Source: Prochlorococcus sp. MIT 0801
GTDB taxonomy: Bacteria > Cyanobacteriota > Cyanobacteriia > PCC-6307 > Cyanobiaceae
Length of the DNA stretch: 32,000 nt
Reading direction: 5' to 3'
Assembly (NCBI RefSeq): GCF_000757865.1
Contig: NZ_CP007754.1
Coordinates: forward strand, 1,650,001-1,682,000
In this document: positions 16,127 to 28,353 of the stretch, one piece after another
Numbering within the stretch: the stretch's first letter is position 1
How the letters are laid out: every line of letters begins with the position of its first letter
Program-made: the position numbers and the translations under genes
Notes under the pieces: generated by a model
Told to the model about the DNA's origin: nothing
The model's input: only the letters and a program-made list of their open reading frames with translations
Database searches by the model: none

Positions 16127-17152
16127 CTACCCAGCAATAAATACCATCGCAGAAACAAGAATAGCCGAAGCCAAAATCCCTATAGATGCTATTGACACGA
16201 TCTTTCCGGTGTTTAAGGAGACGGATACCGTTAACAATTCAGTTCTTGAGTCTCGTTTTTGTTGTGAATTAATTTGAGTTGGTGAATTACCTTTCTTATT
16301 GGCTTGAAATTTCTTCTGTGTTAGGGCTTTCTTCTCTGCTGCAGCTTTTTTATCTGCTGCGGCTTTCTTATTAGCTGCGGCTTTCTTATCTGCTGCGGCT
16401 TTCTTATCCGCTAAAGCTTTCTTCTCTGCTGCGGCTTTCTTATCTGCTGCAGCTTTTTTATCTGCTGCGGCTTTCTTATTAGCTGCGGCTTTTTTATCTG
16501 CTGCGGCTTTCTTATCCGCTAAAGCTTTCTTATCTGCTGCGGCTTTCTTATCTGCTGCGGCTTTCTTATCCGCTAAAGCTTTCTTATCTGCTGCGGCTTT
16601 CTTATCCGCTAAAGCTTTCTTCTCTGCTGCGGCTTTCTTCTCTGCTGCAGCTTTTTTATCTGCTGCGGCTTTCTTATCCGCTAAAGCTTTCTTCTCTGCT
16701 GCAGCTTTTTTATCTGCTGCGGCTTTCTTCTCTGCTGCAGCTTTTTTATCTGCTGCGGCTTTCTTATCCGCTAAAGCTTTCTTCTCTGCTGCGGCTTTCT
16801 TATCCGCTAACGCTTTCTTCTCTGCTGCGGCTTTCTTATTAGCTGCGGCTTTCTTATCTGCTGCAGCTTTTTTATCTGCTGCGGCTTTCTTATCTGCTGC
16901 GGCTTTCTTATCCGCTAAAGCTTTCTTCTCTGCTGCGGCTTTCTTATCTGCTGCGGCTTTCTTATCCGCTAAAGCTTTCTTCTCTGCTGCGGCTTTCTTA
17001 TCCGCTAACGCTTTCTTCTCTGCTGCGGCTTTCTTCTCTGCTAACGCTTTCTTCTCTGCTAAAGCTTTCTTATCTGCTAAAGCTTTCTTCTCTGCAGCAG
17101 CTTTCTTATCTGCTAACGCTTTCTTTTCTGCCTGAGCTGTTTGAACTTGCAC
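16127..17152 (-). CDS. Tail-anchored Ala/Lys-rich repeat protein: about 45 copies of the hexapeptide (A/L)A(E/D/N)KKA, then a short linker and a C-terminal TM helix
   Basis: 341-codon ORF with a GTG start and no internal ATG until the TM segment. Repeat units differ mainly by synonymous changes (AAG/AAA, GCC/GCT/GCA/GCG), which argues for coding constraint. The C-terminus is IVSIASIGILASAILVSAMVFIAG. Confidence 0.75.
   Translation of the reverse strand: MQVQTAQAEKKALADKKAAAEKKALADKKALAEKKALAEKKAAAEKKALADKKAAAEKKALADKKAAADKKAAAEKKALADKKAAADKKAAADKKAAADKKAAANKKAAAEKKALADKKAAAEKKALADKKAAADKKAAAEKKAAADKKAAAEKKALADKKAAADKKAAAEKKAAAEKKALADKKAAADKKALADKKAAADKKAAADKKALADKKAAADKKAAANKKAAADKKAAADKKAAAEKKALADKKAAADKKAAANKKAAADKKAAAEKKALTQKKFQANKKGNSPTQINSQQKRDSRTELLTVSVSLNTGKIVSIASIGILASAILVSAMVFIAG
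16325..17131. repeat. 18-bp tandem repeat array (about 45 units) inside the Ala/Lys repeat gene
   Basis: Plus-strand units take the form GCTGCGGCTTTCTTATCT, GCTGCAGCTTTTTTATCT or GCTAAAGCTTTCTTCTCT. Confidence 0.9.
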
Positions 17153-17399: not shown

Positions 17400-19190
17400 A
17401 TGGAAGACTCTTATAAGAAAGAGAATAAAGAAGTCAATGAAGAAAAAACATTCTCAATTCCATCTTCATTAGAAAAAATTAAGGAGAATATTTCAATATC
17501 AAACAATACTCCTTATAAACCATCTAAAGAACAAATAATTAAGCAAGCATTTCAATTTCATTCAGAAGGCAACATTTCAGAAGCATCAAAATATTATCAA
17601 TATTTTATTAATCAAGGATTCAAAGATCATAGAGTTTTTTCTAATTATGGAAGTATTTTGAAAGATCTTGCCAAACTAAAAGAAGCAGAAATTTCAACTC
17701 GTAAAGCCATTGAACTTAATCCTAATTTCTCAAATGCTCATTACAATCTGGGGAATATACTAAGTGATCTTGGCCAACTAAAAGAAGCAGAAATTTCAAC
17801 TCGTAAAGCCATTGAACTTAATCCTAATTTCTCAAATGCTCATTATAGTCTCGGGAACATCCTGAACAATCTTGGCCAACTAAAAGAAGCAGAAATATCA
17901 CTTCGAAAAGCTATTGAACTTAATCCTAATAACGCTAATGCTCATTATAATCTTGGAAACATATTGAGCGAGCTTGGAAAGAAAAAAGAAACAGAAATAT
18001 CACTTCGAAAAGCTATTGAACTTAATCCTGAGCTAGCTCAAGCACATTCCAATTTAGGAAGAATATTGAAAGATACTGGCAATTTGCAAGAAGCAGAAAT
18101 ATTAACTCGAAAAGCTATTGATCTTAAGCCCGATTTGGCTGAGGCTCATTCCAATCTGGGACAAATCTTGAATGATCTTGGAATCTTACAAGATGCAGAA
18201 AACTCTACTCGAAAAGCTATTGAACTTAATCCTGATTTTGCTGAGGCTTATTTAAATCTATCTATGATAGAGCTTCTCAAAGGGAATTATCAATCTGGTC
18301 TAGATAATTATGAATTTAGATTCAAAGTAAATAAACCCAACCTTCCTCATGGCTTAACAAAAATGAAACGAAGAGACAGTAGCAAGTTACAAAAAGAAGA
18401 AAAGATCTTAGTCATCACTGAACAAGGCTTAGGAGATACTATTCAATATATGCGTTACATTCCATATCTAAAAAATCAAGGTTTTAATATTTCTTTTTGT
18501 GCTCAAACTAAACTACATCGATTAATACAAGCCTCAGGTATTGAAAAAAATCCTTTAACTCCTGAGCAAGCAAGTCAAGTTTCAGAAGGTACGTATATTC
18601 CATTATTATCTTTACCTAGATATTTAAAAGTAAGTCCAAATAATCCAATAATTTCAGAGCCATATATCTTTCCAACAAATGAACTAAAAAAGAAATGGAA
18701 AAAAATACTCTCTATAGAAAAAAAACCAATTATTGGAATTAATTGGCAAGGTAATCCAGCAATGGAAAAAATCAATTACAAAGGACGTTCTATACCTTTA
18801 GAAACATTCTCTATGCTTTTTGATCGAAATGACATAAGAATGCTTTCTCTTCAAAAGGGATTTGGTTCAGAACAACTCGATCATTGCTCATTCAGGAATA
18901 AGTTTGTTAAATCCCAACCTATAGTTAATTCAACCTGGGATTTCCTAGAAAATGCTGCCATAATTGAAAATTGTGATTTGATTATTACTTGTGATACTTC
19001 AATTGCTCATTTAGCTGGAGGGATGGGAAAAAAAGTTTGGCTACTGTTAAGAGATATCCCCTTTTGGACTTGGGGACTTGAAAAAGAAAATACATTTTGG
19101 TATCCATCGATTAGATTATTTCGTCAAAAAATTCGTCATAACTGGAATGAGGTTATGGAAAGAGTCGCTAAAGAAATAAAAAACTTATAA
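17400..19190 (+). CDS. TPR-repeat protein fused to a GT9 (heptosyltransferase-like) glycosyltransferase domain (paralog A)
   Basis: About 7 consecutive 34-aa TPR units carry the consensus AEAHxNLGxILxDLGxLKEAExSxRKAIELNPNF. The C-terminal half has GT9-type motifs (ILVITEQGLGDTIQYMRYIPYLK; ITCDTSIAHLAGGMGKKVWLLL). Confidence 0.85.
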   Translation: MEDSYKKENKEVNEEKTFSIPSSLEKIKENISISNNTPYKPSKEQIIKQAFQFHSEGNISEASKYYQYFINQGFKDHRVFSNYGSILKDLAKLKEAEISTRKAIELNPNFSNAHYNLGNILSDLGQLKEAEISTRKAIELNPNFSNAHYSLGNILNNLGQLKEAEISLRKAIELNPNNANAHYNLGNILSELGKKKETEISLRKAIELNPELAQAHSNLGRILKDTGNLQEAEILTRKAIDLKPDLAEAHSNLGQILNDLGILQDAENSTRKAIELNPDFAEAYLNLSMIELLKGNYQSGLDNYEFRFKVNKPNLPHGLTKMKRRDSSKLQKEEKILVITEQGLGDTIQYMRYIPYLKNQGFNISFCAQTKLHRLIQASGIEKNPLTPEQASQVSEGTYIPLLSLPRYLKVSPNNPIISEPYIFPTNELKKKWKKILSIEKKPIIGINWQGNPAMEKINYKGRSIPLETFSMLFDRNDIRMLSLQKGFGSEQLDHCSFRNKFVKSQPIVNSTWDFLENAAIIENCDLIITCDTSIAHLAGGMGKKVWLLLRDIPFWTWGLEKENTFWYPSIRLFRQKIRHNWNEVMERVAKEIKNL

Positions 19191-19259
19191 TCAAAAGAAT
19201 ATAAAGGCAAAATTCCTATATAAGCCTACTATTAAAGTAACATCTAAAGTATTGGGAGA

Positions 19260-19823
19260 ATGAATGGTCTTAAGCTAAATCTTGGATGTGGAGAAAGAAA
19301 GTTGCCAGGTTATATCAATGTAGATAAATTTGGAAGCCCAGATATTAAACATAATTTAGAATCCTTTCCTTGGCCTTGGAAAAAAAATTCAGTATCTGAG
19401 ATACAATTAATACATGTTCTAGAACATTTAGGAAAAGATATAGAAATATACTTTGGAATATTTAAAGAGATGTATAGAATATGTAATAATGGAGCAAATA
19501 TTAGAATAGTTGTTCCCCACTTTAGACATCAATTCTTCTATGATGATCCAACTCATGTAAGAGTTGTCACACCTTTTGGTTTACGATTATTTTCTAAGAA
19601 ATTAAATAAGTTTTGGATAGAAAATGGTTCATCTAATAGTACTCTTGGAATATATTTAGACATCGATTTTGAACTTAAAGAAATAATTTTAAAAGCAAGT
19701 GAAGACTGGTATAGATTACATCCAGATAAAAATGTCGATATTAATTTGCTCCAACAGGAATCGAATATATACAATAATTTAATTGAGCAATATGATATGA
19801 TGCTTGAGGTGGTAAAAGAATAA
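19260..19823 (+). CDS. Class I SAM-dependent methyltransferase-like protein
   Basis: N-terminal LKLNLGCGERKLPGYINVDK (motif I) and IHVLEHL resemble the Methyltransf_11/23 type. A GGGAGA RBS lies just upstream. Confidence 0.65.
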   Translation: MNGLKLNLGCGERKLPGYINVDKFGSPDIKHNLESFPWPWKKNSVSEIQLIHVLEHLGKDIEIYFGIFKEMYRICNNGANIRIVVPHFRHQFFYDDPTHVRVVTPFGLRLFSKKLNKFWIENGSSNSTLGIYLDIDFELKEIILKASEDWYRLHPDKNVDINLLQQESNIYNNLIEQYDMMLEVVKE

Positions 19824-20019
19824 CGATACTGATATTAATAAATCATACAATCGAAACGAATAGATATTACGATTATCATTCTTAGAAGTACAAAACTTTA
19901 TTAGATTTCATATATTGGAAAGAAAGATAGATTAATGTTAGATATTAATTTTTTTTGCTTTTTAAGAAGGAATAATATACCTTAATTAATAAATAACCTA
20001 TTCAACAGATAAATTTATA

Positions 20020-20202
20020 GTGAATAATCTAGAAAATTCACTCAGCGATAGAGTTTTTAAGTTGCATAGAGCAAATAAATTTCTCCATAAAGCACATCTG
20101 ATGAAAGCAGATGCGTGGCTCAATATAAACCGACCAAAACCAGCAATAAACTTCTATAAAGCTAAACGCTCAGCAACTGAGTTGAATCGAATATGTGGAT
20201 AG
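20020..20202 (+). CDS. Small basic hypothetical protein (60 aa, GTG start)
   Basis: Track ORF only; it is Lys/Arg-rich. A truncated look-alike start (GTGAATAATCAAAGAAAT...) occurs at 26331. Coding status is uncertain. Confidence 0.3.
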   Translation: MNNLENSLSDRVFKLHRANKFLHKAHLMKADAWLNINRPKPAINFYKAKRSATELNRICG

Positions 20203-20325
20203 GGAAAAGCAATTTTCCTCCCTACTTTTCCCTCCTAAGCTATAAACTGTTAATTGAGACCTTTAGTCTCATATCCTTACTACAAATGGTCAGAGGATTA
20301 CTAATTTAAAAATACCTAGAGAATT

Positions 20326-20913
20326 ATGGAATCTGATGATAAATATAACAAAGAGCAAAAGGTCTTCAGGATAAAGACATTTACTGTTCCCTTTTCTTTG
20401 GAAAAGATTAAGGAAAATATGCATATTAATACTCATACTTCATCAAATCCTTCAAAAGAAACAATCATTACAAAAGCATTTCAATTTCATTCAGAAGGTA
20501 ACATTTCAGAAGCATCAAAATATTATCAATATTTTATTAATCAAGGATTCAAAGATCATAGAGTTTTTTCAAATTATGGAAGTATTTTGAAAGATCTAGG
20601 AAAATCAAAGGAAGCAGCAAACTTATTACGTAAAGCAATTACAATTAACCCTAAATTTGCTGCTGGACATTACAATCTTGGGAACATGTTGAAAGAAATG
20701 GGCAAGTCAAAAGAAGCAATTTTGTGTTATAAAGAATCACTTTTATGCTATAAAGAAGAAATTAATTCCGATAAAAATATTGATAAAGTCAAAAATAATC
20801 TAGGTGATCTACTATTAAAAAATGGCAATTTAAAAGAAGGCTTATTATATATAAGAGAGGCAAATGGGTCCATTATTCTTAATTATAAAAAATCTAGCAT
20901 AATCATTAATTAA
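20326..20913 (+). CDS. Short TPR protein (paralog B) with no catalytic domain
   Basis: It shares the N-terminal module with paralogs A, C and D; 120 of 122 nt are identical to A across AFQFHSEGNISEASKYYQYFINQGFKDHRVFSNYGSILKDL. Its TAA stop directly abuts the ATG of the next gene, in the same frame. Confidence 0.8.
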   Translation: MESDDKYNKEQKVFRIKTFTVPFSLEKIKENMHINTHTSSNPSKETIITKAFQFHSEGNISEASKYYQYFINQGFKDHRVFSNYGSILKDLGKSKEAANLLRKAITINPKFAAGHYNLGNMLKEMGKSKEAILCYKESLLCYKEEINSDKNIDKVKNNLGDLLLKNGNLKEGLLYIREANGSIILNYKKSSIIIN

Positions 20914-21513
20914 ATGAATAAAGTATTTATCAATAAAAGTAACCTACATCCTCATTTTATTGGCTCTTGGATTATGGACGAATTATCTATATGTAAAGGT
21001 CTTATAAATTATTTTGAACTAAATTCAATTAAACATATTAAAGGCAGAATAGGGGGTGGAATTGATCCTAATACGAAGGATAGTATTGATATTGTTATTC
21101 ATCCTAAAGATATTTTATTGCCAGGTAATGAAATTTTTAAAAAATATCTTGATGAGCTTTTTAATTTCTACAAAAACTATTTAGATGAATGGCCTTTTTT
21201 AAAGGAAATGACTCAAGTATTAGAAATTGGTTCATTCAATCTTCAAAGATATAAACCTGGTCAACATTTTAAAAAAATACATACAGAGCGGGCCAGTATA
21301 GATAGCTCTCATCGTGTTTTTGCTTTTATGACTTACTTAAATGATGTTAAAGAAGGAGGTTCAACATATTTTAGTCATTATGATCTTGAAATACAGCCTA
21401 GAGAGGGATTAACGTTAATTTGGCCCGCGGAATGGACTCACGCACACAGAGGTAATACATTAATAAAAGGTTCAAAATATATCATAACTGGTTGGATAAA
21501 CTTTGCTAATTAA
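20914..21513 (+). CDS. 2OG-Fe(II) oxygenase, prolyl-4-hydroxylase-like
   Basis: KIHTERAS (HxD/E), FMTYLNDVKEGGSTYF, PREGLTLIWPAEWTHAHRG (distal His) and GSKYIITGWINF (2OG-binding Lys context) follow the P4H-type double-stranded beta-helix pattern. Confidence 0.8.
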   Translation: MNKVFINKSNLHPHFIGSWIMDELSICKGLINYFELNSIKHIKGRIGGGIDPNTKDSIDIVIHPKDILLPGNEIFKKYLDELFNFYKNYLDEWPFLKEMTQVLEIGSFNLQRYKPGQHFKKIHTERASIDSSHRVFAFMTYLNDVKEGGSTYFSHYDLEIQPREGLTLIWPAEWTHAHRGNTLIKGSKYIITGWINFAN

Positions 21514-21659
21514 TCCCAATTAATTATTATATTTTCTAATTTTTGTATATAAAAGATATTTTAATTAATATCCTATATGAATTAGATTCATAGCTTAAAT
21601 TATAAGTAATATTTTACCTTAAGAGATAAACATTTAAACGAAGATTAGCATCATAGAAT

Positions 21660-21738
21660 CCTTTAACATTACAACATATTTGGTCATTTGGACTTATACG
21701 GATTCACCCAACCTTAATAGGAACGTAGAGGAAGTTCG
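21660..21738. repeat. Degenerate copy A of the tRNA-Ser 3' end plus downstream-flank repeat
   Basis: ...CAACATATTTGGTCATTTGGACTTATACGGATTCACCCAACCTTAATAGGAACGTAGAGGAAGTTCG aligns with 26711-26797 and with 28150-28224. Confidence 0.55.
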
Positions 21739-22094
21739 CTAGTGGCAAACCAAAAAGAACGACAGCGAAAGGAAATGAACTAATAACTACCTGAGAAATA
21801 CATATATTGCCTCCAAAGCAGGAAAGGCAGAGTGAGTCGGAAGATATTCTTGCTCACTAAAACTTCAGAAAGTTCCAAAAGAAGAGTTAACGCAAATCAT
21901 TAACTATGGATTAAAGGACATAACTAAGTTGGATGACTTCAATCAAGTATTGGATTAGGGAAAACAGTTCTTTTTATCAAGCAAGAATTCTTCATCTAAC
22001 TATATGACTTAAGTCACAATAATCTCAGGAAAAGTTTGAAGTACCAATTAAATTGAGTAGTAGAATTAATGAAATTAGAAGTCCTTAGAAGATA

Positions 22095-24647
22095 ATGGAA
22101 TCTATTGATAAAGATCAAGGAAAAAATAAGATCACTAAAATTAAAATATACCCAGTTCCATATGAGTTAGAAGAAATCAAAGAAAATCTTACTATTGTTA
22201 TCAATACTTCATCTAAAGATTCTAAACAACAAGTAATTAATCAGGCATTTAACTTTCACTCAAAAGGAAATATAGCACAAGCACTAAAATATTATCAACA
22301 GATAATAAATCAAGGATCTAATGATTATAGAGTTTTTTATAATTATGGGTTAATACTAAAAGATCTTGGGAAAGTAAAAGAAGCAGAAGTATCACTTCGC
22401 CGCGCAATTGAAATTAATCCTGATTTCGCTAATGCATATTTAAGTCTTGGAAATTTATTAAGAGGTCTTAGGAATTTTAAAGACGCAGAAATATATACTC
22501 GCAAAGCAATTGAAATCAATCCAAACTTCGCAGAAGCTCATTCCAATCTGGGAAGTATCTTACAAGATATTGGTAAATTAAAAGAAGCAGAAGCATCACT
22601 TCACAAAGCCATTGAACTCAATACTAATGTAGGAGAGGTTCATTATAACTTAGGGATCATTTTAAAAGATCTTGGTAAAATACAAGAATCTGAAAAATCC
22701 ACTCGCAAAGCAATTAAGATTAATCCTAACTTTGCAAATGCTCATATGTATTTAGGAACCATATTAAAAGATCTTGGCAAATTAAAAGAAGCTGAAAAAT
22801 CCACTCGCAAAGCAATTGAAATCAATCCTAACTTTGCAAATGCTCATATGAATTTGGGAACCATATTAAAAGATCTTGATAAATTACAAGAAGCAGAAAT
22901 CTCTACTCGTAAAGCCATTGACATTAATCCTAATTCCGCAGAGGTTCATTACAACTTGGGAATCATATTAAAAGATCTTGGCAAATTAAAAGAAGCTGAA
23001 AAATCCACTCGCAAAGCAATTGAAATTAATCCTAATTTTGCAGTTGCTCATAATAACCTGGGAGATATATTAAGAGCTCTTGGGAATATACAAAAGTCTG
23101 AGTTATCAATAAGAAAAGCTATTGAAATAAATCCTAATTTAGCTTTTGCTCACTTGAATCTGGGGAGAATATTAGTAGATCTAGACAAATTAAAAGAAGC
23201 AGAATTATCTACCAAAAAAGCTATTGAACTCAAACCTGAACTAATAATGGCGCATTTCAATCTTGGAATTATTTTTATAAATCTTGGGAAATATGATGCT
23301 GCTATAAATTGCTATAAAAAAGCTATAAAGTTAAACAATTCTTTCTCACCAGCAAAGGTTGGATTACTTGAATCTAAAAAAGATATATGTGACTGGAGTG
23401 ATCAAAAAGCTGATAATACTTGGATTAAGACTCTTGGTTTTGAAGGTGACGCTGTAATTCCATTCCCTTTCTTCTTTTTTGAAGATAATCCTTTAAAAGA
23501 TTTAAAAAGAGCCCAAAACTTCTATAAACAAAATTTCAAACAAAATGCTGTTAATTTACCTATTTTCAAAAATAAAAGAATTCATATAGGTTACTTCTCT
23601 TCTGACTTTAAAGATCACGCAACTATGCATCTAATTGCTTCTATTTTTGAATTACACGATAAATCAAAATTCAAAATATATTTATATTCATTTACTCCTA
23701 GAGAAGATATATATACAGAGAGAGCTAAACAATCTGGATGTTTTTTTAGAGATATAAAAAATTTGAATACTATTGAAGCTGTTGAATTAGCAAGGAGAGA
23801 TAGACTCGATATAGCTATAGATCTTAAAGGTTATACTAAACATTCTAGAATGAATATCTTTTCATCTCGAGTAGCTCCTATACAAATAAATTATCTTGGA
23901 TATCCAGGATCTCTGGGTGCAGAAACTATTGATTATATAATTGCTGATAATATTTTAATCCCAAAGGAAAAGGAAAGATTTTATTCTGAAAAAATTATAC
24001 GAATGCCAAATTGCTATCAATGTAATGATAATAAAAAAGAAATTTCTAAAGAATCTATTTCCCGTAGAGATTTTAAACTGCCTGATAAAGGATTTATATT
24101 TACTTGTTTTAATTCTAATAAAAAAATATCTCCAAAAGAATTTGATATTTGGATGAGATTACTTAAAGAAGTAAAAGGAAGCGTACTATGGTTATATAAA
24201 TCTAATACTTGGGCAATTCAAAACCTATGTAAAGAAGCAGAGATAAGAAATATTGATTCAGATAGATTATTTTTTGCTAACAAGCTTCCATTAGAAAAAC
24301 ATTTAGCCAGATATTCTCTTGGTGATTTAGCACTTGATACTTTTAACTGTAATGGTCACACTACGACCTCAGATGCTTTATGGGCAGGTTTACCAGTTCT
24401 AACAAAAATTGGAGAAAGCTTTTCTGCAAGAGTATCTGCAAGTTTACTAACTTCTCTAGGGATTCCAGAACTCATTACACATAATGAGAAAGAATATGAA
24501 GAGAAAGCTATTCACATAGCAAATAATCCTGATGTCCTCAAGAACCTAAAGTCGCAAGTAATTACTTTGAGGAATAAATCACCACTTTTTAATTCAAAAT
24601 TATTTACAAAGAATCTAGAAAGTAAATTCCTGGAACTTGTAAAGTAA
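22095..24647 (+). CDS. TPR-repeat protein fused to a GT41 (O-GlcNAc transferase / SPINDLY-like) domain (paralog C)
   Basis: About 11 TPR units are followed by GT41 hallmarks: IHIGYFSSDFKDHATMHLIASIFELHD and LDTFNCNGHTTTSDALWAGLPVLTKIGESFSARVSASLLTSLGIPELI. Confidence 0.9.
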   Translation: MESIDKDQGKNKITKIKIYPVPYELEEIKENLTIVINTSSKDSKQQVINQAFNFHSKGNIAQALKYYQQIINQGSNDYRVFYNYGLILKDLGKVKEAEVSLRRAIEINPDFANAYLSLGNLLRGLRNFKDAEIYTRKAIEINPNFAEAHSNLGSILQDIGKLKEAEASLHKAIELNTNVGEVHYNLGIILKDLGKIQESEKSTRKAIKINPNFANAHMYLGTILKDLGKLKEAEKSTRKAIEINPNFANAHMNLGTILKDLDKLQEAEISTRKAIDINPNSAEVHYNLGIILKDLGKLKEAEKSTRKAIEINPNFAVAHNNLGDILRALGNIQKSELSIRKAIEINPNLAFAHLNLGRILVDLDKLKEAELSTKKAIELKPELIMAHFNLGIIFINLGKYDAAINCYKKAIKLNNSFSPAKVGLLESKKDICDWSDQKADNTWIKTLGFEGDAVIPFPFFFFEDNPLKDLKRAQNFYKQNFKQNAVNLPIFKNKRIHIGYFSSDFKDHATMHLIASIFELHDKSKFKIYLYSFTPREDIYTERAKQSGCFFRDIKNLNTIEAVELARRDRLDIAIDLKGYTKHSRMNIFSSRVAPIQINYLGYPGSLGAETIDYIIADNILIPKEKERFYSEKIIRMPNCYQCNDNKKEISKESISRRDFKLPDKGFIFTCFNSNKKISPKEFDIWMRLLKEVKGSVLWLYKSNTWAIQNLCKEAEIRNIDSDRLFFANKLPLEKHLARYSLGDLALDTFNCNGHTTTSDALWAGLPVLTKIGESFSARVSASLLTSLGIPELITHNEKEYEEKAIHIANNPDVLKNLKSQVITLRNKSPLFNSKLFTKNLESKFLELVK

Positions 24648-24899
24648 TATAAGCAGTCATACTAGTAAGTTTAGGTGATTATGAACTCGTCTGAATCTAA
24701 TTAAAAACTGAGAGAAAGTCCATTATTGGAGAACCAGAATGAACTGGGACGCAAGGGGATGGAAGGTCGAGGCGGAAAAAAGCAATATTTCCCCCTACTT
24801 TTTTCCCTACGAAGTAAAGATGTTAATCAACAGAAAATTATTGTCTTAACAGACTAAATTAACTCAATGTATTTCCCAATGGGGACTTCCTAAGAGATT

Positions 24900-26276
24900 A
24901 TGGAATCTAGTAGTAAAAATCAAGAGAGGGAAAAAGTCATAAAAATAAAGACATTTACAATTCCATCTTCTTTGGGAGAGATCAAAGAAAATATTATAAT
25001 TAATACTGATACTTCATCTAAACATTCTAAAGAGGAAGAAATCTATCAAGTCTCTAAGTTACATTCACAAGAAAACAAATTAGAAGCAGCAAACTATTAT
25101 AATTCCTTAATCAATCAAGGGTCTAATGATTATAGAGTATTTTCTAATTATGGAGTAATATTAAAAGATCTTGGCAAATTAAAAGAAGCTGAAATAACTC
25201 TGAGAAAAGCTATTAAGTTAAACCCACATAACCCAAAGGATTATAAAAATTTAGGAAGTATATTAGTGAATCAAGGTCAATTAAAGGAAGCACTAATAGA
25301 AGTAGAAAAAGCAATTAAAATAAATCCTAATTATGAAAAAGCTCATCTTAATCTAGGAGTTATACTTAGATACAATGGACAAATAAAAGAAGCAGAATTA
25401 TCATTCCGCAAAGCACTAGAAATTAAACCTGATTACGCAGATGCTCATTATAATTTAGGAATTATTTTAAAAGATAGTGGTAGATCAAAAGAGGCAGAAC
25501 TATCATTCCAGAAAGCCATTAAAATTAAACCAAATTGGGAAGCAAGTTTCCTCTATTCGAGTATTCTTTTTGATAAAAAAGATTTTGATGGCTCCCTAAG
25601 TAATCTTCAAAGAATAAAATCTAGCGTAACCTCGGGTAATTTAAAGACAGTCCAAGCAGCAATAACAGCAATCAATTTAACTAAAAAAAAATCACTCAAT
25701 AAAAATCAATTAGACTCCTCAAAAACCTCAAAGTTATTAAAGGAAGAAAAGTTTAATCGACTGATTTTAAAACGACCAGTAGAGAAAGAACTTCTATCGT
25801 ATCTATATAAACTAAATACAATTTTACTAGACAATACAGATCCAAACGATTCGAGATACGGAAAAGGTTTATGCTCAGATTTTAATTTATTTGAAGATAA
25901 TTCACAAATTATTAGAAAGTTAGAAAGTGATCTAATAGAGATATCAAAAAGATCACTTAATAAAAAAAAACTAATAATTACTGACTCATTTTTTAATATT
26001 TTTATTTCAGGTTCTGGATCAAGAAGACATCACCATATTGGGAAACAAGATATGAACTTTGGACTATATTTTCATAAATATTCATTAGTATATTATCTAG
26101 ATATAGGAGATCAAACTTCTCAAAATCCAGGCGTACTTAAATTATATAATCCTGACGAAGAGATACTACCCTCAAACGATATGATTATCATACTTAATAG
26201 TACAAAACTTCATTCAGTTTCATATGTTGGAAAAAAAGATAGAGTAATGGTAGGTATTAATTTCTATGCTTTCTAA
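24900..26276 (+). CDS. TPR-repeat protein fused to a putative 2OG-Fe(II) oxygenase domain of the cyanobacterial/cyanophage type (paralog D)
   Basis: It has the shared N-terminal module plus about 4-5 TPRs. The C-terminal RRHHHIGKQD...SLVYYLDIG...GVLKLYNP...ILPSNDMIIILNSTKLHSVSYVGKKDRVMVGINFY fits an HxH/D...H...R jelly-roll pattern. Confidence 0.7.
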   Translation: MESSSKNQEREKVIKIKTFTIPSSLGEIKENIIINTDTSSKHSKEEEIYQVSKLHSQENKLEAANYYNSLINQGSNDYRVFSNYGVILKDLGKLKEAEITLRKAIKLNPHNPKDYKNLGSILVNQGQLKEALIEVEKAIKINPNYEKAHLNLGVILRYNGQIKEAELSFRKALEIKPDYADAHYNLGIILKDSGRSKEAELSFQKAIKIKPNWEASFLYSSILFDKKDFDGSLSNLQRIKSSVTSGNLKTVQAAITAINLTKKKSLNKNQLDSSKTSKLLKEEKFNRLILKRPVEKELLSYLYKLNTILLDNTDPNDSRYGKGLCSDFNLFEDNSQIIRKLESDLIEISKRSLNKKKLIITDSFFNIFISGSGSRRHHHIGKQDMNFGLYFHKYSLVYYLDIGDQTSQNPGVLKLYNPDEEILPSNDMIIILNSTKLHSVSYVGKKDRVMVGINFYAF

Positions 26277-26665
26277 GAAGAAATAATTTAACTTGATTAA
26301 CAAATAGTTAATTCAATAGCTACAATTAATAGTGAATAATCAAAGAAATCTACGAAATATCAGATTTCCTTAAGTCACCCAGTATTTTATTCCTATTAAT
26401 TACCTTTTTTTGTCCCCAACATATACTCCAACTTCGTGTCAGAATGAGAATTCTGAGGGACAGTCTTTCATCTAAGCCTTTTATAGAATCTAATTAGTAA
26501 TCTTTAACCCCTTCAAGGACTGAAATGACAAGAGGAGGGAGGATAATAGAGAACCCTATAACCTGAAAAACACTACCCACAACGCAGCACCCGAAATAGA
26601 CCGACATACCTGAAACCCGCATCCCTTCAGCGATCTCACTTTCCCCCTACTCAGTGCAAGGAATC

Positions 26666-26797
26666 TATGGCACACTTACTGAGAGCCTTGGACTGCCTGA
26701 TCTTCTAATTCCTTACTGGCAACATTTTTTTCTGTTTCTTGGACTTATATGGACTTGCCCGAACCAATTAAGAACAGAGAGGGAGGACTTTTGAATG
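26666..26797. repeat. Degenerate copy B of the tRNA-Ser 3' end plus downstream-flank repeat
   Basis: TATGGCACA...ACTGGCAACATTT...TTGGACTTATATGGACTTGCCCGAACCAATTAAGAACAGAGAGGGAGGA parallels 28105-28224 (TATGGCACA...ACTGGCATTT...TTGAGTCCTTATGAAGCACCCTGAACCAAAATAAATACGGAGAGGGAGGGA). Confidence 0.6.
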
Positions 26798-26854
26798 ACA
26801 CCAAGTGGACTGTGGTGGAGCAGCATGACGCAAGTGGATGAGATTTTGGGGTTA

Positions 26855-26880
26855 TTCCACCCAACATTCCACCCAACACA
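26855..26880. repeat. CACCCAACA repeat block, left (TTCCACCCAACA x2)
   Basis: The 21-mer CACCCAACATTCCACCCAACA at 26858-26878 recurs exactly at 28071-28091. Confidence 0.85.
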
Positions 26881-26928
26881 TTTAAAATGTTATTTAAGGA
26901 TCACAATTACTGTCTAAAATATACTGTC

Positions 26929-26975
26929 AAAATTAAAAGAGGGACTCAAGATCGCTGAAGCAGCAGGGTCCCTTT
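26929..26975 (-). terminator. Possible terminator for the minus-strand small-ORF pair
   Basis: On the minus strand, GGGAC-22 nt-GTCCC is followed by TCTTTTAATTTT, 15 nt after the stop at 26990. The loop is long, so the structure is only moderately convincing. Confidence 0.45.
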
Positions 26976-26989
26976 CTTAATGCAAGAAA

Positions 26990-27160
26990 TCAAGGTTTCC
27001 AATACTCATCCCATTCATCCTGAAGTTCTTTCTGCGATAAAGAGTTGTAGAAACCTCTCCACTTCTTTTCTGAATTTGCGTCAGTTGCACTCAATGACAC
27101 CATTAGATCTATTCCTTCTTCTTTGGTAAAGGATTTGCCTTGATTTGATTTGAATATCAC
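26990..27160 (-). CDS. Possible small ORF: 56 codons from GTG at 27160, or 37 codons from ATG at 27103
   Basis: Hand translation gives VIFKSNQGKSFTKEEGIDLMVSLSATDANSEKKWRGFYNSLSQKELQDEWDEYWKP*. The GTG directly follows the TAA of the upstream ORF (TAAGTG). Confidence 0.3.
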   Translation of the reverse strand: MIFKSNQGKSFTKEEGIDLMVSLSATDANSEKKWRGFYNSLSQKELQDEWDEYWKP

Positions 27161-27391
27161 TTACGAAGCAATCTCTTCCCAAGGATCACGTGAAGACAGT
27201 TCCTTGAATGGTATCAATTTAAAATCACCTCTCCTGATACCACTACAGATCAATCCATCTGGATGTTCTCTCTTAAATATTTCAACTGCATCTTCTTTTC
27301 GTTCTGATGGAATCGTGACTTTATAAATCACATCACCTGAATCACGAATCTTATAAACAAAAATCCAATCATATTCTTTACTATCCATCAT
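27161..27391 (-). CDS. Hypothetical small protein (76 aa)
   Basis: Track ORF with an ATGATG start. Its composition is balanced and non-repetitive. I recognise no family. Confidence 0.5.
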   Translation of the reverse strand: MMDSKEYDWIFVYKIRDSGDVIYKVTIPSERKEDAVEIFKREHPDGLICSGIRRGDFKLIPFKELSSRDPWEEIAS

Positions 27392-27515
27392 CAGTTCATG
27401 CTGACTAACTTTGTTTTAACTCACTTTGGTCTGATGAACCAATTACACAAATAGAAACAGGTGTTTTCTCTCATGTTCCAATGATTTTGTTTGATTAGAA
27501 ATGGGTTGGAGTTCT

Positions 27516-27736
27516 AGCACTTGTCTTCCCGTAGGTCAGGGAAGTGGTTAGTAAAGAAAATGGATTGTTCACACGGATACACAAGTGCTGAACTTAAAGG
27601 GGGCAACCAAAATCTTGCCCCCTTCTTTAATGGAAAATTTATTGGTTGACCATCTAGACAAAAGCAGTATATTTGTACTAGTTCAATCCCCGTCACAAAC
27701 AACAAAGGAACCACCAGTGAGCAGGTGGTTTTTTTG
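27516..27736 (+). ncRNA. Candidate structured small RNA ending in a strong intrinsic terminator
   Basis: Nested hairpins are AGCACTTGT(27516)/ACAAGTGCT(27581), CTTCCC/GGGAAG (27525-27544) and AAGGGGGCAA/TTGCCCCCTT (27597-27624). The terminator AACCACC-agtgagca-GGTGGTT plus T7 sits at 27709-27736. There is no credible plus-strand ORF. Confidence 0.3.
27709..27736 (+). terminator. Rho-independent terminator (plus strand)
   Basis: A 7-bp GC-rich stem and 8-nt loop are followed by TTTTTTTG. Confidence 0.75.
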
Positions 27737-27752
27737 TCTCTTGAAATAGAAA

Positions 27753-28034
27753 ATGAACCAACCAATCAGAGAAGCATTGCCAACGCCAACAGGATGGTTA
27801 GTTGCACCGACTAGAGATTTTTGTCTGTTCTTTATTCGTGATCCCAAATCGGTCATGGTTGCACCGACTGTCTTGACTCAACTTTGGTACTGCACAGAGG
27901 AAGGCATTCCAACAAGACTAAAGAACACAAGACGATTGGATTATGAGAGTGCTCATGAAACTTGGAACGAACTACTCTCTAATGATTGGGAATTAGTAGA
28001 ACATCAATTCGGTGCTTGTGTTGATGCTGCTTAA
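27753..28034 (+). CDS. Small conserved-hypothetical-like protein, reminiscent of the marine picocyanobacterial DUF1651 family
   Basis: 93 aa. GWLVAP...RRLDYESAHETWNELLSNDWELVEHQFG resembles my memory of DUF1651 (GWL...RRxL...A...W..L...GW..V). Unverified. Confidence 0.5.
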   Translation: MNQPIREALPTPTGWLVAPTRDFCLFFIRDPKSVMVAPTVLTQLWYCTEEGIPTRLKNTRRLDYESAHETWNELLSNDWELVEHQFGACVDAA

Positions 28035-28048
28035 TCAACCACTGATAT

Positions 28049-28091
28049 CACCCAACACAAGATTGTTTAACACCCAACATTCCACCCAACA
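28049..28091. repeat. CACCCAACA repeat block, right (three units)
   Basis: CACCCAACACAA (28049-28060) plus CACCCAACATTCCACCCAACA (28071-28091). Confidence 0.85.
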
Positions 28092-28104
28092 AAAAACTGA
28101 ACTG

Positions 28105-28224
28105 TATGGCACAGTATGGACACTCATGATTCAATCATTTTCGTAATATCTAGTCACTGACTGGCATTTGAGTCCTTATGAAGCACCCTGAACCAAAATA
28201 AATACGGAGAGGGAGGGATTCGAA
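28105..28224. repeat. Copy C (reference copy) of the repeat: the flank downstream of tRNA-Ser plus the tRNA 3' end
   Basis: See copies A and B. The last about 20 nt (28205-28224) are the acceptor and T-arm 3' part of the intact tRNA. Confidence 0.6.
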
Positions 28225-28293
28225 CCCTCGACAGAAGTTACCTCCTGTAACTCCTTAGCAGGGAGCCGCTTTCAACCACTCAGCCACCTCTCC
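28205..28293 (-). tRNA. tRNA-Ser (anticodon GCU), 89 nt, long variable arm, no encoded CCA
   Basis: The minus strand reads GGAGAGGTGGCTGAGTGGTTGAAAGCGGCTCCCTGCTAAGGAGTTACAGGAGGTAACTTCTGTCGAGGGTTCGAATCCCTCCCTCTCCG. The acceptor is GGAGAGG/CCTCTCC, the anticodon loop is CT-GCT-AA, the T-loop is GGTTCGAATCC, and there is a class II variable stem. Confidence 0.95.
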
Positions 28294-28353
28294 ATAAGAA
28301 GTACCATATCAAGTCAAAGCTCAATAAAATTAAATTGTGATCCTCTAAAGATG

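What the first reader, a model, noticed from the sequence alone, without database searches (positions are those of the whole stretch)
17400..26276. Cassette of four paralogous TPR adaptor proteins carrying interchangeable protein-modifying enzyme heads (GT9, P4H-like 2OG oxygenase, GT41/OGT, second 2OG oxygenase) plus a methyltransferase
Seen directly:
- ORFs at 17400, 20326, 22095 and 24900 all start with the same roughly 95-aa module. It reads ME(S/D)...K(I/T)(F/Y)x(I/V)PxxLExIKENxxI...SKExxIxxAFxFHSxGNIxEAxKYYQxxINQGxxDxRVFxNYGxILKDLGK.KEAE.
- Each continues into 34-aa TPR arrays.
- After the TPRs they diverge completely: a GT9 heptosyltransferase-like domain (A), nothing followed by an abutting P4H-like 2OG-Fe(II) oxygenase (B plus 20914-21513), a GT41 O-GlcNAc-transferase/SPINDLY-like domain (C), and a different 2OG-oxygenase-like domain (D).
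- A SAM methyltransferase-like gene (19260-19823) sits among them. All are on one strand.

Established knowledge: TPR arrays fused to OGT, aspartyl/asparaginyl hydroxylase, collagen prolyl hydroxylases and TMTC mannosyltransferases act as protein-substrate recognition modules.

Inference: a common, recently homogenised TPR adaptor with swapped catalytic heads suggests a multi-step hydroxylation, glycosylation and methylation pathway converging on one shared protein or envelope target. That would be a eukaryote-like post-translational modification kit in an island. The more conservative alternative is cell-surface or LPS diversification genes, typical of phage-selected islands.
Basis: partly seen in the sequence, partly recalled or inferred. 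Interest (0 to 1): 0.8.

Follow-up and report, generated by a model that had tools for sequence, protein, structure and literature searches.

The report
Prochlorococcus TPR enzymes with swappable heads
Four neighbouring genes in a variable island of Prochlorococcus MIT 0801 share a Prochlorococcus-only N-terminal tag plus near-identical TPR repeats but end in different enzymes, and they belong to a large undescribed family with at least 15 head types, which points to a strain-variable kit for decorating one kind of target, probably at the cell surface.

Summary

**In the window (Prochlorococcus sp. MIT 0801)**
- All six ORFs exist, on one strand.
- A, B, C and D share a roughly 45-aa pre-TPR leader, a special first TPR, and perfectly 34-aa-phased TPRs (8, about 3, 11 and 5 units).
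- A leader model built without the window genes finds exactly these four ORFs (E about 1e-11 to 1e-12 at a database size of 1.84e9).

**Head assignments**

| Gene | Assignment | Strength |
|---|---|---|
| C | GT41/OGT | strong |
| ORF 20914 | 2OG-FeII_Oxy_3 | passes the Pfam cutoff |
| A | GT9-like GT-B | fold only, below the Pfam cutoff |
| D | PF13759-like 2OG | profile-profile comparison only |
| ORF 19260 | minimal class I SAM methyltransferase | fold only |

**Across 62 Prochlorococcus loci**
- The same leader and TPR front at least 15 head types.
- The genes sit in tandem same-strand arrays at four or more chromosomal sites.
- Array content differs between strains at the same site.
- Leader similarity is uncoupled from head type.

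**Interpretation**
- Only two pairs recur: A plus the methyltransferase (also in NATL2A and, without the leader, in a Leptolyngbyaceae genome) and B plus the 2OG oxygenase. The four-gene set does not. A fixed multi-step pathway is therefore unlikely.
- A variable toolbox aimed at a shared target or hub fits better.
- Whether the substrate is protein or glycan is unresolved.

I found no published description of this family.

The parts
17400..19190 (+). Gene A: leader (residues 1-43), 8 TPR units (44-315), and a GT9-like GT-B glycosyltransferase head (about 316-596).
   Evidence: ORF. TPR Pfam hits and 34-aa register. Pfam GT9 is only 16-17.5 bits, below the cutoff of 22. The AF2 model has pLDDT 87.7. 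Foldseek top hits are GT9 3tov (3e-8), WaaF, TibC and WaaC. The protein is 100% identical to WP_038654294.1 of Prochlorococcus sp. MIT 0801.
19260..19823 (+). Small (187 aa) minimal class I SAM-methyltransferase-like protein, a conserved partner of A-type genes.
   Evidence: No Pfam or NCBIfam hit. The AF2 model (pLDDT 83.7) has Foldseek top-50 hits that are all SAM methyltransferases. It has 2172 homologues, and RefSeq/UniRef records name some homologues class I SAM-dependent methyltransferase. It lies next to an A-type gene in NATL2A and in a Leptolyngbyaceae MAG.
19872..19961 (+). Pseudogene relic of the 3' end of a D-type head, with an in-frame stop.
   Evidence: tblastn gives 67% identity over 30 aa to D residues 429-458, E 3.6e-8. 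The DNA repeat 19868-19951 versus 26180-26263 is 85% identical.
20326..20913 (+). Gene B: leader plus about 3 TPR units and no catalytic head. It is the adaptor half of a two-gene unit.
   Evidence: It shares a 126-nt near-identical tract with A. B-like genes abut the same 199-aa 2OG ORF in L011, L018 and L024.
20914..21513 (+). Stand-alone P4H-type 2OG-Fe(II) oxygenase. Its ATG directly follows B's TAA stop.
   Evidence: Pfam 2OG-FeII_Oxy_3 at 45.6 bits, above the cutoff of 27. Junction. An H-x-E ... H motif is conserved in 4 orthologues. It is ~40% identical over 95% of its length to 2OG oxygenases in 443 phage records, mostly cyanomyoviruses.
22095..24647 (+). Gene C: leader, 11 TPR units, and a GT41 (OGT-type) glycosyltransferase head.
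   Evidence: Pfam GT41 at 288.6 bits. PDB matches are DmOGT 1e-73, hOGT 2e-68, XcOGT 7e-63, SPINDLY 1e-50 and HMW1C 1e-6. The His of the SDFxxH motif aligns with the solved OGT sequences; the FN...K and NGHTT motifs were read by eye.
24900..26276 (+). Gene D: leader, 5 TPR units, a linker, and a DSBH 2OG-oxygenase-like head of the PF13759 type.
   Evidence: Pfam 2OG-FeII_Oxy_3 is sub-threshold at 21-22 bits. hhalign to 2OG-FeII_Oxy_5 heads gives 96% probability, E 2.9e-9. HxH(I/L)xxxD and H-x10-R are conserved in 6 homologues.
27753..28034 (+). DUF1651 small protein, an island-associated gene that recurs beside these arrays.
   Evidence: Pfam DUF1651 at 98 bits. Homologues lie next to arrays in L003, L018 and L024.
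28204..28294 (-). tRNA-Ser(GCU). Its 3' end faces the island and marks the right-hand boundary.
   Evidence: ARAGORN and Rfam. No repeat of its 3' end occurs elsewhere in the window.

Best explanation
**What the genes are (shown).** They are members of a family seen here only in Prochlorococcus sequences and marine metagenomes, probably cytoplasmic, since by eye the N-termini are charged with no hydrophobic signal-like stretch. Every member is built in the same order:
1. A variable charged start.
2. A conserved ~35-aa leader (consensus TFPVPFALEEIKENITISTNTPSKPSKEQIINQA).
3. A special, highly conserved first TPR.
4. Between about 3 and 11 copies of one idealised TPR unit.
5. One catalytic head.

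**How they most likely work (inferred).**
- The common leader and TPR front end dock each enzyme on the same kind of partner. That partner is either the substrate itself or a shared assembly or export hub.
- The precedents are OGT and FlmG, whose TPRs bind the protein substrate.
- Each head then adds its own modification: O-glycosylation (GT41), a GT9-type sugar, hydroxylation (two kinds of 2OG oxygenase), or methylation.
- In other strains the heads add sulfation, glycerophosphorylation, radical-SAM chemistry or arginine-type methylation.
- The enzymes act as an independent, mix-and-match toolbox, not as one fixed pathway.
- Two sub-modules are conserved two-gene units: the A-type GT with the small methyltransferase, and the headless adaptor B translationally coupled to a phage-like 2OG oxygenase.

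**Evolution and likely role.**
- The arrays sit in hypervariable islands and differ between strains.
- The repetitive TPR DNA plausibly serves as the recombination handle that expands or contracts arrays and exchanges heads.
- The most likely biological role is strain-specific decoration of exported or cell-surface macromolecules under phage or grazer selection. Proteins are somewhat more likely as targets than polysaccharide.
For: **Architecture shown.**
- Leader-only HMM hits 109 ORFs in 63 loci plus the window, in tandem same-strand arrays of up to 6-7 genes.
- The leader profile finds 442 cluster representatives among 1.84e9 proteins; apart from two long multi-stretch hits judged low-complexity, those listed match at the N-terminus.
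- The leave-out test recovers exactly the four window genes.
- The family consensus shows a cap TPR followed by one repeated consensus unit.
- A-type head start positions fall in exact 34-aa steps, corresponding to 6-11 units.

**Head diversity.** Sulfotransfer_3/1, 2OG-FeII_Oxy_5, Methyltransf_11/25, GT9-like, TylF, FkbM, GT41, Glyphos_transf, radical SAM+SPASM and PrmA/PRMT5-like were all found, plus at least 3 unknown heads.

**Heads look catalytically competent.** The OGT catalytic-His motif aligns between C and solved OGTs (the Lys and GHTT motifs were read by eye), the 2OG metal-binding motifs are present, and the A head keeps the GT9-like GDT...DTS.AHLAGG motifs.

**Toolbox rather than pathway.**
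- Content differs at the syntenic site in L032, L001 and L013.
- A leader's nearest neighbour shares its head in only 4 of 66 cases, against 10% expected by chance.
- A D-type relic lies at 19872-19961, and A and B share a conversion tract.

**Conserved pairs.** A plus the methyltransferase and B plus the 2OG oxygenase.

**Island behaviour.** Low G+C, a tRNA-Ser flank, and at least 4 insertion sites between core genes.

**Precedents for TPR as a substrate adaptor.** S. elongatus Ogt glycosylates PilA (PMC9306852), and FlmG's TPR binds flagellin (PMC7591256).

**Candidate substrates nearby.** DUF4214/RTX/cadherin/PPC secreted proteins lie next to arrays in 8 loci.
Against: - No substrate, partner or activity has been shown for any member.
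- Several heads (sulfotransferase, TylF and FkbM O-methyltransferases, TagF-like, GT9-like) are more typical of glycan tailoring than of protein tailoring.
- Idealised, near-identical TPR units are unusual for a specific binding surface. They could instead be an oligomerisation or spacer module.
- The leader may be conserved for a reason unrelated to docking, such as folding, stability or regulation.
- Clade distribution was not established beyond relatives of MIT 0801 and NATL2A.
- Expression was not examined.
- The adjacency to DUF4214 proteins has no background frequency for comparison.
Confidence: 0.45

Rival explanations
1. Polysaccharide, LPS or capsule tailoring. The heads modify a surface glycan by sulfation, O-methylation, glycerophosphate or sugar addition, and hydroxylation. 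The TPR array serves as an oligomerisation or scaffold module that assembles the enzymes at the membrane, not as a protein-substrate adaptor.
For: - Many heads are glycan-type: Sulfotransfer_3, TylF, FkbM, Glyphos_transf (TagF-like), GT9-like, and a weak NKWYS capsular match.
- NAD-dependent sugar epimerase/dehydratase genes neighbour arrays in 8 loci.
- A GT2 gene lies in the conserved left flank.
- Islands of surface-polysaccharide genes under phage selection are well known in Prochlorococcus (own knowledge: Avrani et al. 2011).
- TagF-like capsule polymerases of Gram-negative pathogens carry TPR domains used for oligomerisation (own knowledge, not checked here).
Against: - GT41/OGT-type, PrmA/PRMT5-like, P4H-type 2OG and radical SAM/SPASM heads are typically protein or peptide modifiers.
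- The arrays contain no flippase, polymerase, ABC exporter or lipid-carrier genes.
- The characterised cyanobacterial TPR-GT41 acts on a protein (PMC9306852).
Confidence: 0.27
2. The genes of this window form one multi-step hydroxylation, glycosylation and methylation pathway that converges on a single shared protein, like collagen-type or eukaryote-like PTM cascades.
For: - All genes are on the same strand, adjacent, and share the N-module.
- Hydroxylase and glycosyltransferase heads co-reside in the window.
- Two tight pairs, A+MT and B+2OG, suggest sequential action.
Against: - The four-head set is not found in any of the other 63 loci, and arrays combine at least 15 heads freely.
- The syntenic site in other strains carries other heads.
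- Intergenic gaps are 252-581 nt, with a pseudogene relic between genes.
- Nothing suggests the hydroxylated residue is the glycosyl acceptor.
Confidence: 0.12
3. Intracellular regulatory or assembly role. The proteins are TPR chaperone or assembly factors, or OGT-like signalling enzymes acting on cytoplasmic or thylakoid proteins, as part of low-light adaptation. An example would be PSII assembly, as suggested for the LL-enriched TPR Pfams.
For: - TPR Pfams are the most LL-enriched Pfams in Prochlorococcus, and this was interpreted as PSII-related (PMC11357015).
- By eye the proteins have charged N-termini and no hydrophobic signal-like stretch.
- The window island lies beside psaA/psaB/psaL.
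- An S. elongatus ogt mutant is reported to have wider thylakoid lumen (Sokol and Olszewski 2015, as reported in PMC9306852).
Against: - Strain-variable gene content, low-G+C islands, tandem paralogy and pseudogene relics are atypical of core photosynthetic assembly factors.
- The psa genes belong to the conserved flank, and other arrays sit beside unrelated core genes.
- The head repertoire (sulfotransferase, TagF-like, GT9-like) does not fit a photosystem assembly role.
Confidence: 0.08

Closest known systems
O-GlcNAc transferases / SPINDLY (GT41 with N-terminal TPRs), including Synechococcus elongatus Ogt, which glycosylates pilin PilA (PMC9306852), and Xanthomonas XcOGT
   Same: Gene C has the same architecture, TPR superhelix plus GT41. 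It is strongly similar to metazoan and bacterial OGTs (1e-73 to 7e-63), and the catalytic-His motif aligns with theirs (the Lys and GHTT motifs were read by eye). It is likewise probably cytoplasmic, with a charged N-terminus and no hydrophobic signal-like stretch by eye. The idea that the TPR selects the protein substrate comes from this family.
   Different: C carries an extra leader, seen here only in Prochlorococcus, and a cap TPR. It shares these with paralogues that have entirely different catalytic heads. C sits in a hypervariable tandem array, not next to pilin genes. Its sugar donor and acceptor are unknown.
FlmG, the flagellin glycosyltransferase of Caulobacter (TPR domain binds flagellin, GT domain transfers pseudaminic acid; PMC7591256)
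   Same: It is a modular bacterial cytoplasmic enzyme in which an N-terminal TPR module recruits the protein substrate for a C-terminal GT head.
   Different: FlmG is a single enzyme with a single substrate class. Prochlorococcus has no flagella (PMC7994388). No family of paralogues with swapped heads has been described for FlmG.
GT9 heptosyltransferases (WaaC, WaaF, PDB 3tov) and the protein heptosyltransferase TibC (BAHT family)
   Same: The A head adopts the same GT-B fold, with these as best structural matches. It keeps GT9-like GD... and D(T/S)x.AHLA motifs.
   Different: It is below the Pfam GT9 threshold at 16-17.5 bits against 22, and has only ~13% identity to solved GT9 structures. 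It is fused to TPRs. Marine picocyanobacterial LPS is reported to lack heptose (own knowledge), so the donor sugar is probably different.
Cyanomyovirus 2OG-Fe(II) oxygenases (PF13640-type, multi-copy in T4-like cyanophages, function unknown)
   Same: ORF 20914 is ~40% identical over 95% of its length to these phage proteins, with hits in 443 phage records. GenBank even labelled it 'Phage protein'.
   Different: The host copy is translationally coupled to a leader-TPR adaptor gene (B). That pairing is conserved in 4 loci. The phage copies examined are annotated as stand-alone genes.
Polymorphic toxin / Rhs-CdiA type modular loci (conserved N-terminal region, variable C-terminal domain, tandem alternative cassettes). 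This is an evolutionary analogy only.
   Same: Both have a conserved 5' part and a variable 3' catalytic part. Both show tandem arrays, relics of displaced 3' ends, strain-to-strain variation at the same site, and uncoupling of N-terminal and C-terminal phylogeny.
   Different: The heads here are biosynthetic tailoring enzymes, not toxins. There are no immunity genes and no secretion-system association. Every cassette is a complete gene with its own start.

Membership tests
GT41 (OGT/SPY) - gene C | Match to Pfam PF13844 above the gathering score | tested here: met
   288.6 bits against a cutoff of 25, with two stretches covering the N-Cat and C-Cat lobes.
GT41 (OGT/SPY) - gene C | Conserved catalytic and UDP-binding motifs (SDFxxH, FN...K, NGHTT) and N-terminal TPRs | tested here: met
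   SDFKDHAT aligns with the SDFGNHPT motif of Drosophila OGT in the residue-level alignment, and human OGT matches the same region in the hit table. FNSNKKISP and CNGHTT were read by eye in the C sequence. C has 11 TPR units. Catalytic activity could not be tested.
GT9 (heptosyltransferase) - gene A head | Match to Pfam PF01075 above the gathering score | tested here: not met
   16.1-17.5 bits against a cutoff of 22, covering residues 514-546 only. No PDB sequence hit by phmmer or by profile.
GT9 (heptosyltransferase) - gene A head | GT-B fold closest to solved GT9 structures | tested here: met
   The AF2 model (pLDDT 87.7) has Foldseek best hits 3tov (3e-8), WaaF 1psw, TibC 4rb4/4rap and WaaC, with TM 0.5-0.57. 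The head is therefore filed as 'GT9-like' and not as a GT9 member.
2OG-Fe(II) oxygenase, P4H-type (PF13640) - ORF 20914 | Pfam match above the gathering score and an HxD/E...H metal triad | tested here: met
   45.6 bits against a cutoff of 27. H-T-E and the distal WTHAH motif, plus a basic residue, are conserved in 4 orthologues (motif read by eye).
2OG-Fe(II) oxygenase superfamily - gene D head | Significant match to a 2OG oxygenase family and a metal-binding motif | tested here: inconclusive
   Pfam PF13640 is below cutoff at 20.9-22.2 bits against 27. hhalign to Pfam-verified PF13759 heads of the same family gives 96% probability, E 2.9e-9, aligning HxH and the distal His and Arg. The motif is HxHxxxxD, not the canonical HxD. 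No structure was predicted.
Class I SAM-dependent methyltransferase - ORF 19260 | Sequence-family match (Pfam or NCBIfam) | tested here: not met
   No Pfam or NCBIfam hit even at E <= 1. hhalign against Methyltransf_11 heads was not significant. The PDB profile search was not significant.
Class I SAM-dependent methyltransferase - ORF 19260 | Rossmann-like SAM-methyltransferase fold with a glycine-rich motif I | tested here: met
   The AF2 model (pLDDT 83.7) gives 293 Foldseek PDB hits at E < 1e-3, and the top 50 are all SAM methyltransferases (3l8d at 4e-8), though TM is only 0.4-0.58. LNLGCG...NVD...HVLEHL is invariant in 15 homologues.
   No other locus among the 63 has the same four heads. 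The syntenic site in L032, L001 and L013 holds other heads. Only the A+MT and B+2OG pairs recur.
tRNA-linked integrative element (tycheposon-like island) | Integrase or recombinase gene and a direct repeat of the tRNA 3' end | tested here: not met
   No second copy of the tRNA-Ser 3' end in the window at up to 3 mismatches. No integrase-like domain among the window ORFs submitted to Pfam; the small ORFs between 26277 and 28200 were only partly scanned. Only the adjacency to the tRNA is present.

The most novel reading that the evidence does not exclude
The conserved leader plus cap TPR is a universal docking tag. It plugs any of at least 15 enzyme heads into a single hub or onto a single class of substrates. 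The substrates could be RTX/DUF4214-type surface proteins modified in the cytoplasm before export.

This would give the most abundant phototroph a combinatorial, strain-specific post-translational decoration system. New enzyme fusions would be generated continually by recombination within the homogenised TPR DNA. The phage-like 2OG oxygenase paired with a headless adaptor (B) would then show that adaptor and head can also work as separate polypeptides. It would hint that the cyanophage copies act on the same target.
Probability: 0.22. Interest if true: 0.8.

Novelty: new variant of a known kind. Interest (0 to 1): 0.58.

Why it matters
**It changes how a known enrichment is read.** TPR Pfams are the protein families most enriched in low-light Prochlorococcus. 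They have been read as photosystem-assembly factors (PMC11357015). RefSeq names A, B, C and D, including the GT41 protein, simply 'tetratricopeptide repeat protein'.

The proteins found here are enzyme fusions of one modular family, built on a shared lineage-specific front end. They sit in hypervariable islands. The question becomes what is being decorated, and why so variably.

**If the shared module targets one substrate class**, this would be:
- a natural plug-and-play system for directing many chemistries to one target;
- a likely determinant of phage or grazer recognition in a globally dominant phototroph;
- a possible clue to the long-unexplained multi-copy 2OG oxygenases of cyanophages.

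**A practical point.** The family breaks assemblies, because many loci end inside a member. It is therefore probably under-counted in SAGs and MAGs.

Tried and rejected
**Searches that returned nothing useful**
- PDB sequence searches for the A head, D head and ORF 19260, as single sequences and as profiles, gave nothing significant. Fold prediction was needed instead.
- hhalign of ORF 19260 against Methyltransf_11 heads was not significant.
- A scan of IMG/VR viral contigs for the N-terminal module (leader plus first TPRs, alignment A1) found no relative. The module is therefore not phage-borne, although one head type is phage-like.
- The D head has no phage homologue.
- The leader profile in the word-indexed 5.8e9-protein search returned only 40-84-aa fragments from contigs mostly under 2 kb. 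It was uninformative for architectures. The exhaustive representatives search was used instead.
- Literature searches for a prior description found none. Terms covered Prochlorococcus with TPR, glycosyltransferase, sulfotransferase and island, and the NATL2A locus tags.

**Ideas tested and dropped**
- Mobile-element hypothesis: there is no repeat of the tRNA-Ser 3' end and no integrase-like domain among the window ORFs scanned.
- Promoter and terminator scan: counts did not exceed those in shuffled sequence, so no operon structure could be inferred.
- Rfam: only the tRNA was found.
- Pilin as the universal target: pili occur in only about 25% of LLI single-cell genomes (PMC7994388), so this was downgraded to a minor possibility.
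- RNA-level constraint on the conserved 5' region: identical-codon use among identical residues is 62-75%, which is unremarkable for an AT-rich genome. This was not pursued.

They were rebuilt and accepted.

Full report
**1. Source and setting**

The window is from Prochlorococcus sp. MIT 0801. Protein A is 100% identical to WP_038654294.1, on a 1.93-Mb contig.

- Left flank: gltB, cobalamin genes, psaA, psaB, psaL, a GT2 gene, an NlpC/P60 gene and a beta-lactamase-like gene.
- Right flank: tRNA-Ser(GCU) at 28204-28294 on the minus strand with its 3' end facing the cluster, then alr and prfA.
- G+C falls to 28-32% across 17-26 kb, against 36-43% in the flanks.

**2. The observation**

The ORFs are exactly as described, all on the + strand.

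The first ~120 aa of A (17400), B (20326), C (22095) and D (24900) align with 48 invariant columns and 55-68% pairwise identity. The first ~45 residues precede the first TPR, so the similarity is not generic TPR similarity.

I built a leader HMM from 93 A-type proteins of other genomes, leaving the window genes out. It finds exactly these four window ORFs, at residues 1-46, with E between 6e-11 and 9e-13 scaled to 1.84e9 sequences.

The TPRs are in perfect 34-residue register: 8 units in A, about 3 in B, 11 in C and 5 in D. At the DNA level this appears as a 102-nt periodicity.

**3. The heads**

- **C.** It is a clear GT41: Pfam gives 288.6 bits. The best PDB relatives are Drosophila OGT (1e-73), human OGT (2e-68), XcOGT (7e-63), SPINDLY (1e-50) and TtOGT (9e-48). 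HMW1C N-glycosyltransferases are distant at 1e-6. The catalytic-His motif aligns with the solved OGTs; the Lys and GHTT motifs were read by eye.
- **ORF 20914.** It passes the Pfam threshold for 2OG-FeII_Oxy_3 (45.6 bits against 27) and keeps an H-x-E...H motif in four orthologues.
- **A.** It fails the Pfam GT9 threshold (16-17.5 bits against 22) and has no PDB sequence hit. A confident model (pLDDT 87.7) is a GT-B fold. Its best matches are GT9 3tov (3e-8), WaaF, the protein heptosyltransferase TibC and WaaC. It keeps GT9-like motifs. I call it GT9-like, not GT9.
- **D.** It is below threshold for PF13640 (21-22 bits). A profile of six D-type heads matches a profile of Pfam-verified 2OG-FeII_Oxy_5 heads of the same family at 96% probability, E 2.9e-9. 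The match aligns HxH and the distal His-x10-Arg.
- **ORF 19260.** It has no family hit at all. Its model (pLDDT 83.7) matches only class I SAM methyltransferases: 293 hits below 1e-3, though TM is only 0.4-0.58. RefSeq/UniRef records name some homologues that way.

Two hold at family level and three only at fold or profile level.

**4. The finding generalises**

*Distribution.* I scanned one genome per species of bacteria and archaea with the N-terminal module. This returned 63 loci, 61 titled Prochlorococcus, one an uncultured Synechococcaceae single-cell genome (L052) and one a spurious Terriglobia hit.
- The leader-only HMM hits 109 ORFs in these loci.
- These ORFs are often in tandem same-strand arrays of up to 6-7 genes, as in L002, L024 (MIT 0916) and L029.
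- An exhaustive profile search of 1.84e9 representatives finds 442 hits; apart from two long multi-stretch hits judged low-complexity, those listed match at the N-terminus.
- No relative of the N-terminal module occurs in IMG/VR viral contigs.

*Head types.* Clustering the C-terminal parts gave at least 18 groups. Pfam identifies the following:

| Head type | Members |
|---|---|
| Sulfotransferase | 15 (largest group) |
| 2OG-FeII_Oxy_5 | 9 |
| Methyltransf_11/25 | 7 |
| A-type GT9-like | 6 |
| TylF-like O-methyltransferase | 5 |
| FkbM methyltransferase | 2 |
| GT41 | several |
| TagF-like glycerophosphotransferase | 1 |
| Radical SAM + SPASM | 1 |
| PrmA/PRMT5-like methyltransferase | 1 |
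| No Pfam match | at least 3 groups |

Further heads appear among the representatives.

*Family consensus.* The consensus over 86 members has four parts:
- a variable charged start;
- a leader, TFPVPFALEEIKENITISTNTPSKPSKEQIINQA;
- a distinctive and most conserved first TPR, FKFHSQGNISEAAKYYQYFINQGFKDHRVFSNYG;
- the same consensus unit repeated again and again, VILKDLGKLKEAELSTRKAIELNPDFAEAHSNLG.

Among 94 A-type proteins the head starts at residues 235, 269, 303, 337, 371 or 404. These are exact 34-residue steps, so the TPR copy number is polymorphic between 6 and 11.

**5. Evolutionary behaviour**

- **Several chromosomal sites.** Arrays occupy at least four sites between core genes: psaL to alr/prfA, flavodiiron/PBP2, guaA/cbiD, and a corrin methylase/pyk site.
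- **Variable content at one site.** At the site of this window, other strains carry other heads. L032 has an unknown head, a 2OG fragment and two D-type genes. L001 has a PRMT-like head. L013 has another unknown head.
- **Leader and head are uncoupled.** A leader's nearest relative shares its head in only 4 of 66 cases, against 10% expected by chance. It lies in the same locus in 4 of 66 cases.
- **Signs of turnover inside the window.** A and B share a 126-nt tract with at most 3 mismatches, which indicates gene conversion. All other pairs are 68-75% identical in DNA. A 30-codon relic of a D-type 3' end with an in-frame stop lies at 19872-19961.
- **No mobile-element signature.** There is no integrase-like domain among the window ORFs scanned and no repeat of the tRNA 3' end.

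This is the pattern of a recombining cassette family, not of a mobile element or a fixed operon.

**6. Conserved sub-modules**

- **A-type gene plus the small methyltransferase-like gene.**
  - In NATL2A, a leader-bearing A-type gene is followed directly by PMN2A_0954 and a DUF6165 gene, at a different chromosomal site.
  - In a Leptolyngbyaceae MAG, a 66%-identical homologue lies beside a leaderless TPR plus A-type protein (head match about 1e-47). Two further large proteins also lie beside it there: a TylF/Methyltransf_24 methyltransferase with only a faint TPR hit, and an 857-aa TPR protein.
  - The pair is therefore older than the Prochlorococcus leader.
- **Headless adaptor B plus the 199-aa 2OG oxygenase.**
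  - The stop codon of B abuts the start codon of the oxygenase here, in L018 and in L024.
  - In L011 the two overlap by one base, in a different frame.
  - They are therefore two translationally coupled genes, not a split pseudogene or a read-through product.
  - The oxygenase is about 40% identical over 95% of its length to 2OG oxygenases in 443 phage records, mostly cyanomyoviruses. The D head has no phage relative.

**7. How it most likely works**

*Shown:*
- the common architecture;
- the diversity of heads, and motifs consistent with catalytic competence;
- the variable arrays and the two conserved pairs.

*Seen by eye only:*
- the N-termini are charged, with no hydrophobic signal-like stretch.

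*Inferred:*
- The common front end brings different enzymes to the same kind of partner.
- In OGT-type enzymes the TPR superhelix binds the protein substrate (established knowledge). S. elongatus Ogt, also TPR plus GT41, glycosylates pilin (PMC9306852). The TPR domain of FlmG binds flagellin (PMC7591256).
- The GT41, PRMT-like, P4H-type and radical SAM/SPASM heads point to protein or peptide substrates.
- The sulfotransferase, TylF, FkbM, TagF-like and GT9-like heads are more typical of glycans. I keep glycan tailoring as a strong rival. A glycoprotein whose glycans are further tailored would reconcile both.
- Secreted DUF4214/RTX/cadherin/PPC proteins adjoin arrays in 8 loci. They are the best candidate substrates I saw, but I have no background frequency for this adjacency.
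- Pilin is unlikely to be the general target, because only about a quarter of LLI single-cell genomes encode pili (PMC7994388).
- Content varies between strains and the genes sit in islands.

**8. Comparison with what is known, and novelty**

TPR-GT41 proteins are well known. TPR-sulfotransferase and TPR-glycosyltransferase fusions are named as such by NCBI, but none of those met here is described as characterised.

I found no paper describing any of the following:
- a shared lineage-specific leader and cap TPR fronting many head types;
- the tandem arrays;
- the uncoupling of front end and head;
- the 34-residue length polymorphism.

The only related remark is that TPR Pfams are the most LL-enriched in Prochlorococcus, which was attributed to PSII assembly (PMC11357015). 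RefSeq labels A-D merely as 'tetratricopeptide repeat protein'. I rate this as a new variant of a known kind.

**9. Limits**

- Nothing is known here about substrates, partners, activities or expression.
- Clade distribution is known only as the MIT 0801 and NATL2A genomes plus SAGs; only three loci (L001, L013, L032) were checked, and their flanking proteins are 57-100% identical to those of the window.
- Head classification of the loci rests on one Pfam-scanned representative per cluster.
- The D-head and methyltransferase assignments are at superfamily or fold level only.

Noticed in passing
window 16127-17152 (-): A 341-aa ORF made almost entirely of an Ala/Lys/Glu repeat (KKAAAEKKALAD..., 18-nt DNA period), ending in one hydrophobic helix (SIASIGILASAILVSAMVFIAG). 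It has no Pfam hit, and this exact sequence is not in the 15-billion-protein collection. It is transcribed divergently from gene A across a 247-bp gap. The syntenic copy in L032 is much shorter, so the repeat number varies.
   Followed up: partly
window 15472-16035 (-): A 187-aa Lys-rich protein with one predicted hydrophobic segment and no family match. It is conserved (57% identity) at the same position in L032, so it belongs to the conserved flank.
   Followed up: partly
window 27753-28034 (+) and 26277-28200: A DUF1651 small protein (98 bits), together with short conserved stretches in the 1.9-kb gap before tRNA-Ser. The same DUF1651 gene recurs beside the TPR arrays in L003, L018 and L024.
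   Followed up: partly
L002:13999-16305, L010:4290-6371, L021:15208-20220 (and fragments in L001, L013): Large secreted-type proteins ending in DUF4214, with RTX repeats, cadherin, PPC and subtilase domains. They lie directly beside or inside the TPR-enzyme arrays in 8 loci and are possible substrates.
   Followed up: partly
L005:5135-6130 (-) and 11 homologues in 9 loci: A ~331-aa protein with no Pfam match is found repeatedly near short (197-263 aa) leader-TPR genes that lack a head; in L034, the one map examined, the two are convergent. It may be another split adaptor-plus-enzyme pair.
   Followed up: no
P0082 (1013 aa, metagenomic): A protein with two A-type GT9-like heads in tandem (residues 264-554 and 726-1006).
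   Followed up: no
L065:10588-11001 (NATL2A) and L066: A DUF6165 gene overlaps the end of the small methyltransferase-like gene in NATL2A. It is absent after ORF 19260 in this window, where the D-type relic lies instead.
   Followed up: no
many loci (e.g. L004, L006, L012, L039, L056, L058, L060, L061): Contigs of single-cell and metagenome assemblies very often end inside a family member. In addition, the leader hits in the large protein databases are mostly 40-90-aa fragments. The family breaks assemblies and is probably under-counted.
   Followed up: partly
window 12119-12601 (+): A 160-aa HEAT-repeat protein (HEAT_2, 30.9 bits) overlaps the 3' end of the convergent GT2 gene (12559-13521). 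It is conserved in L032.
   Followed up: no
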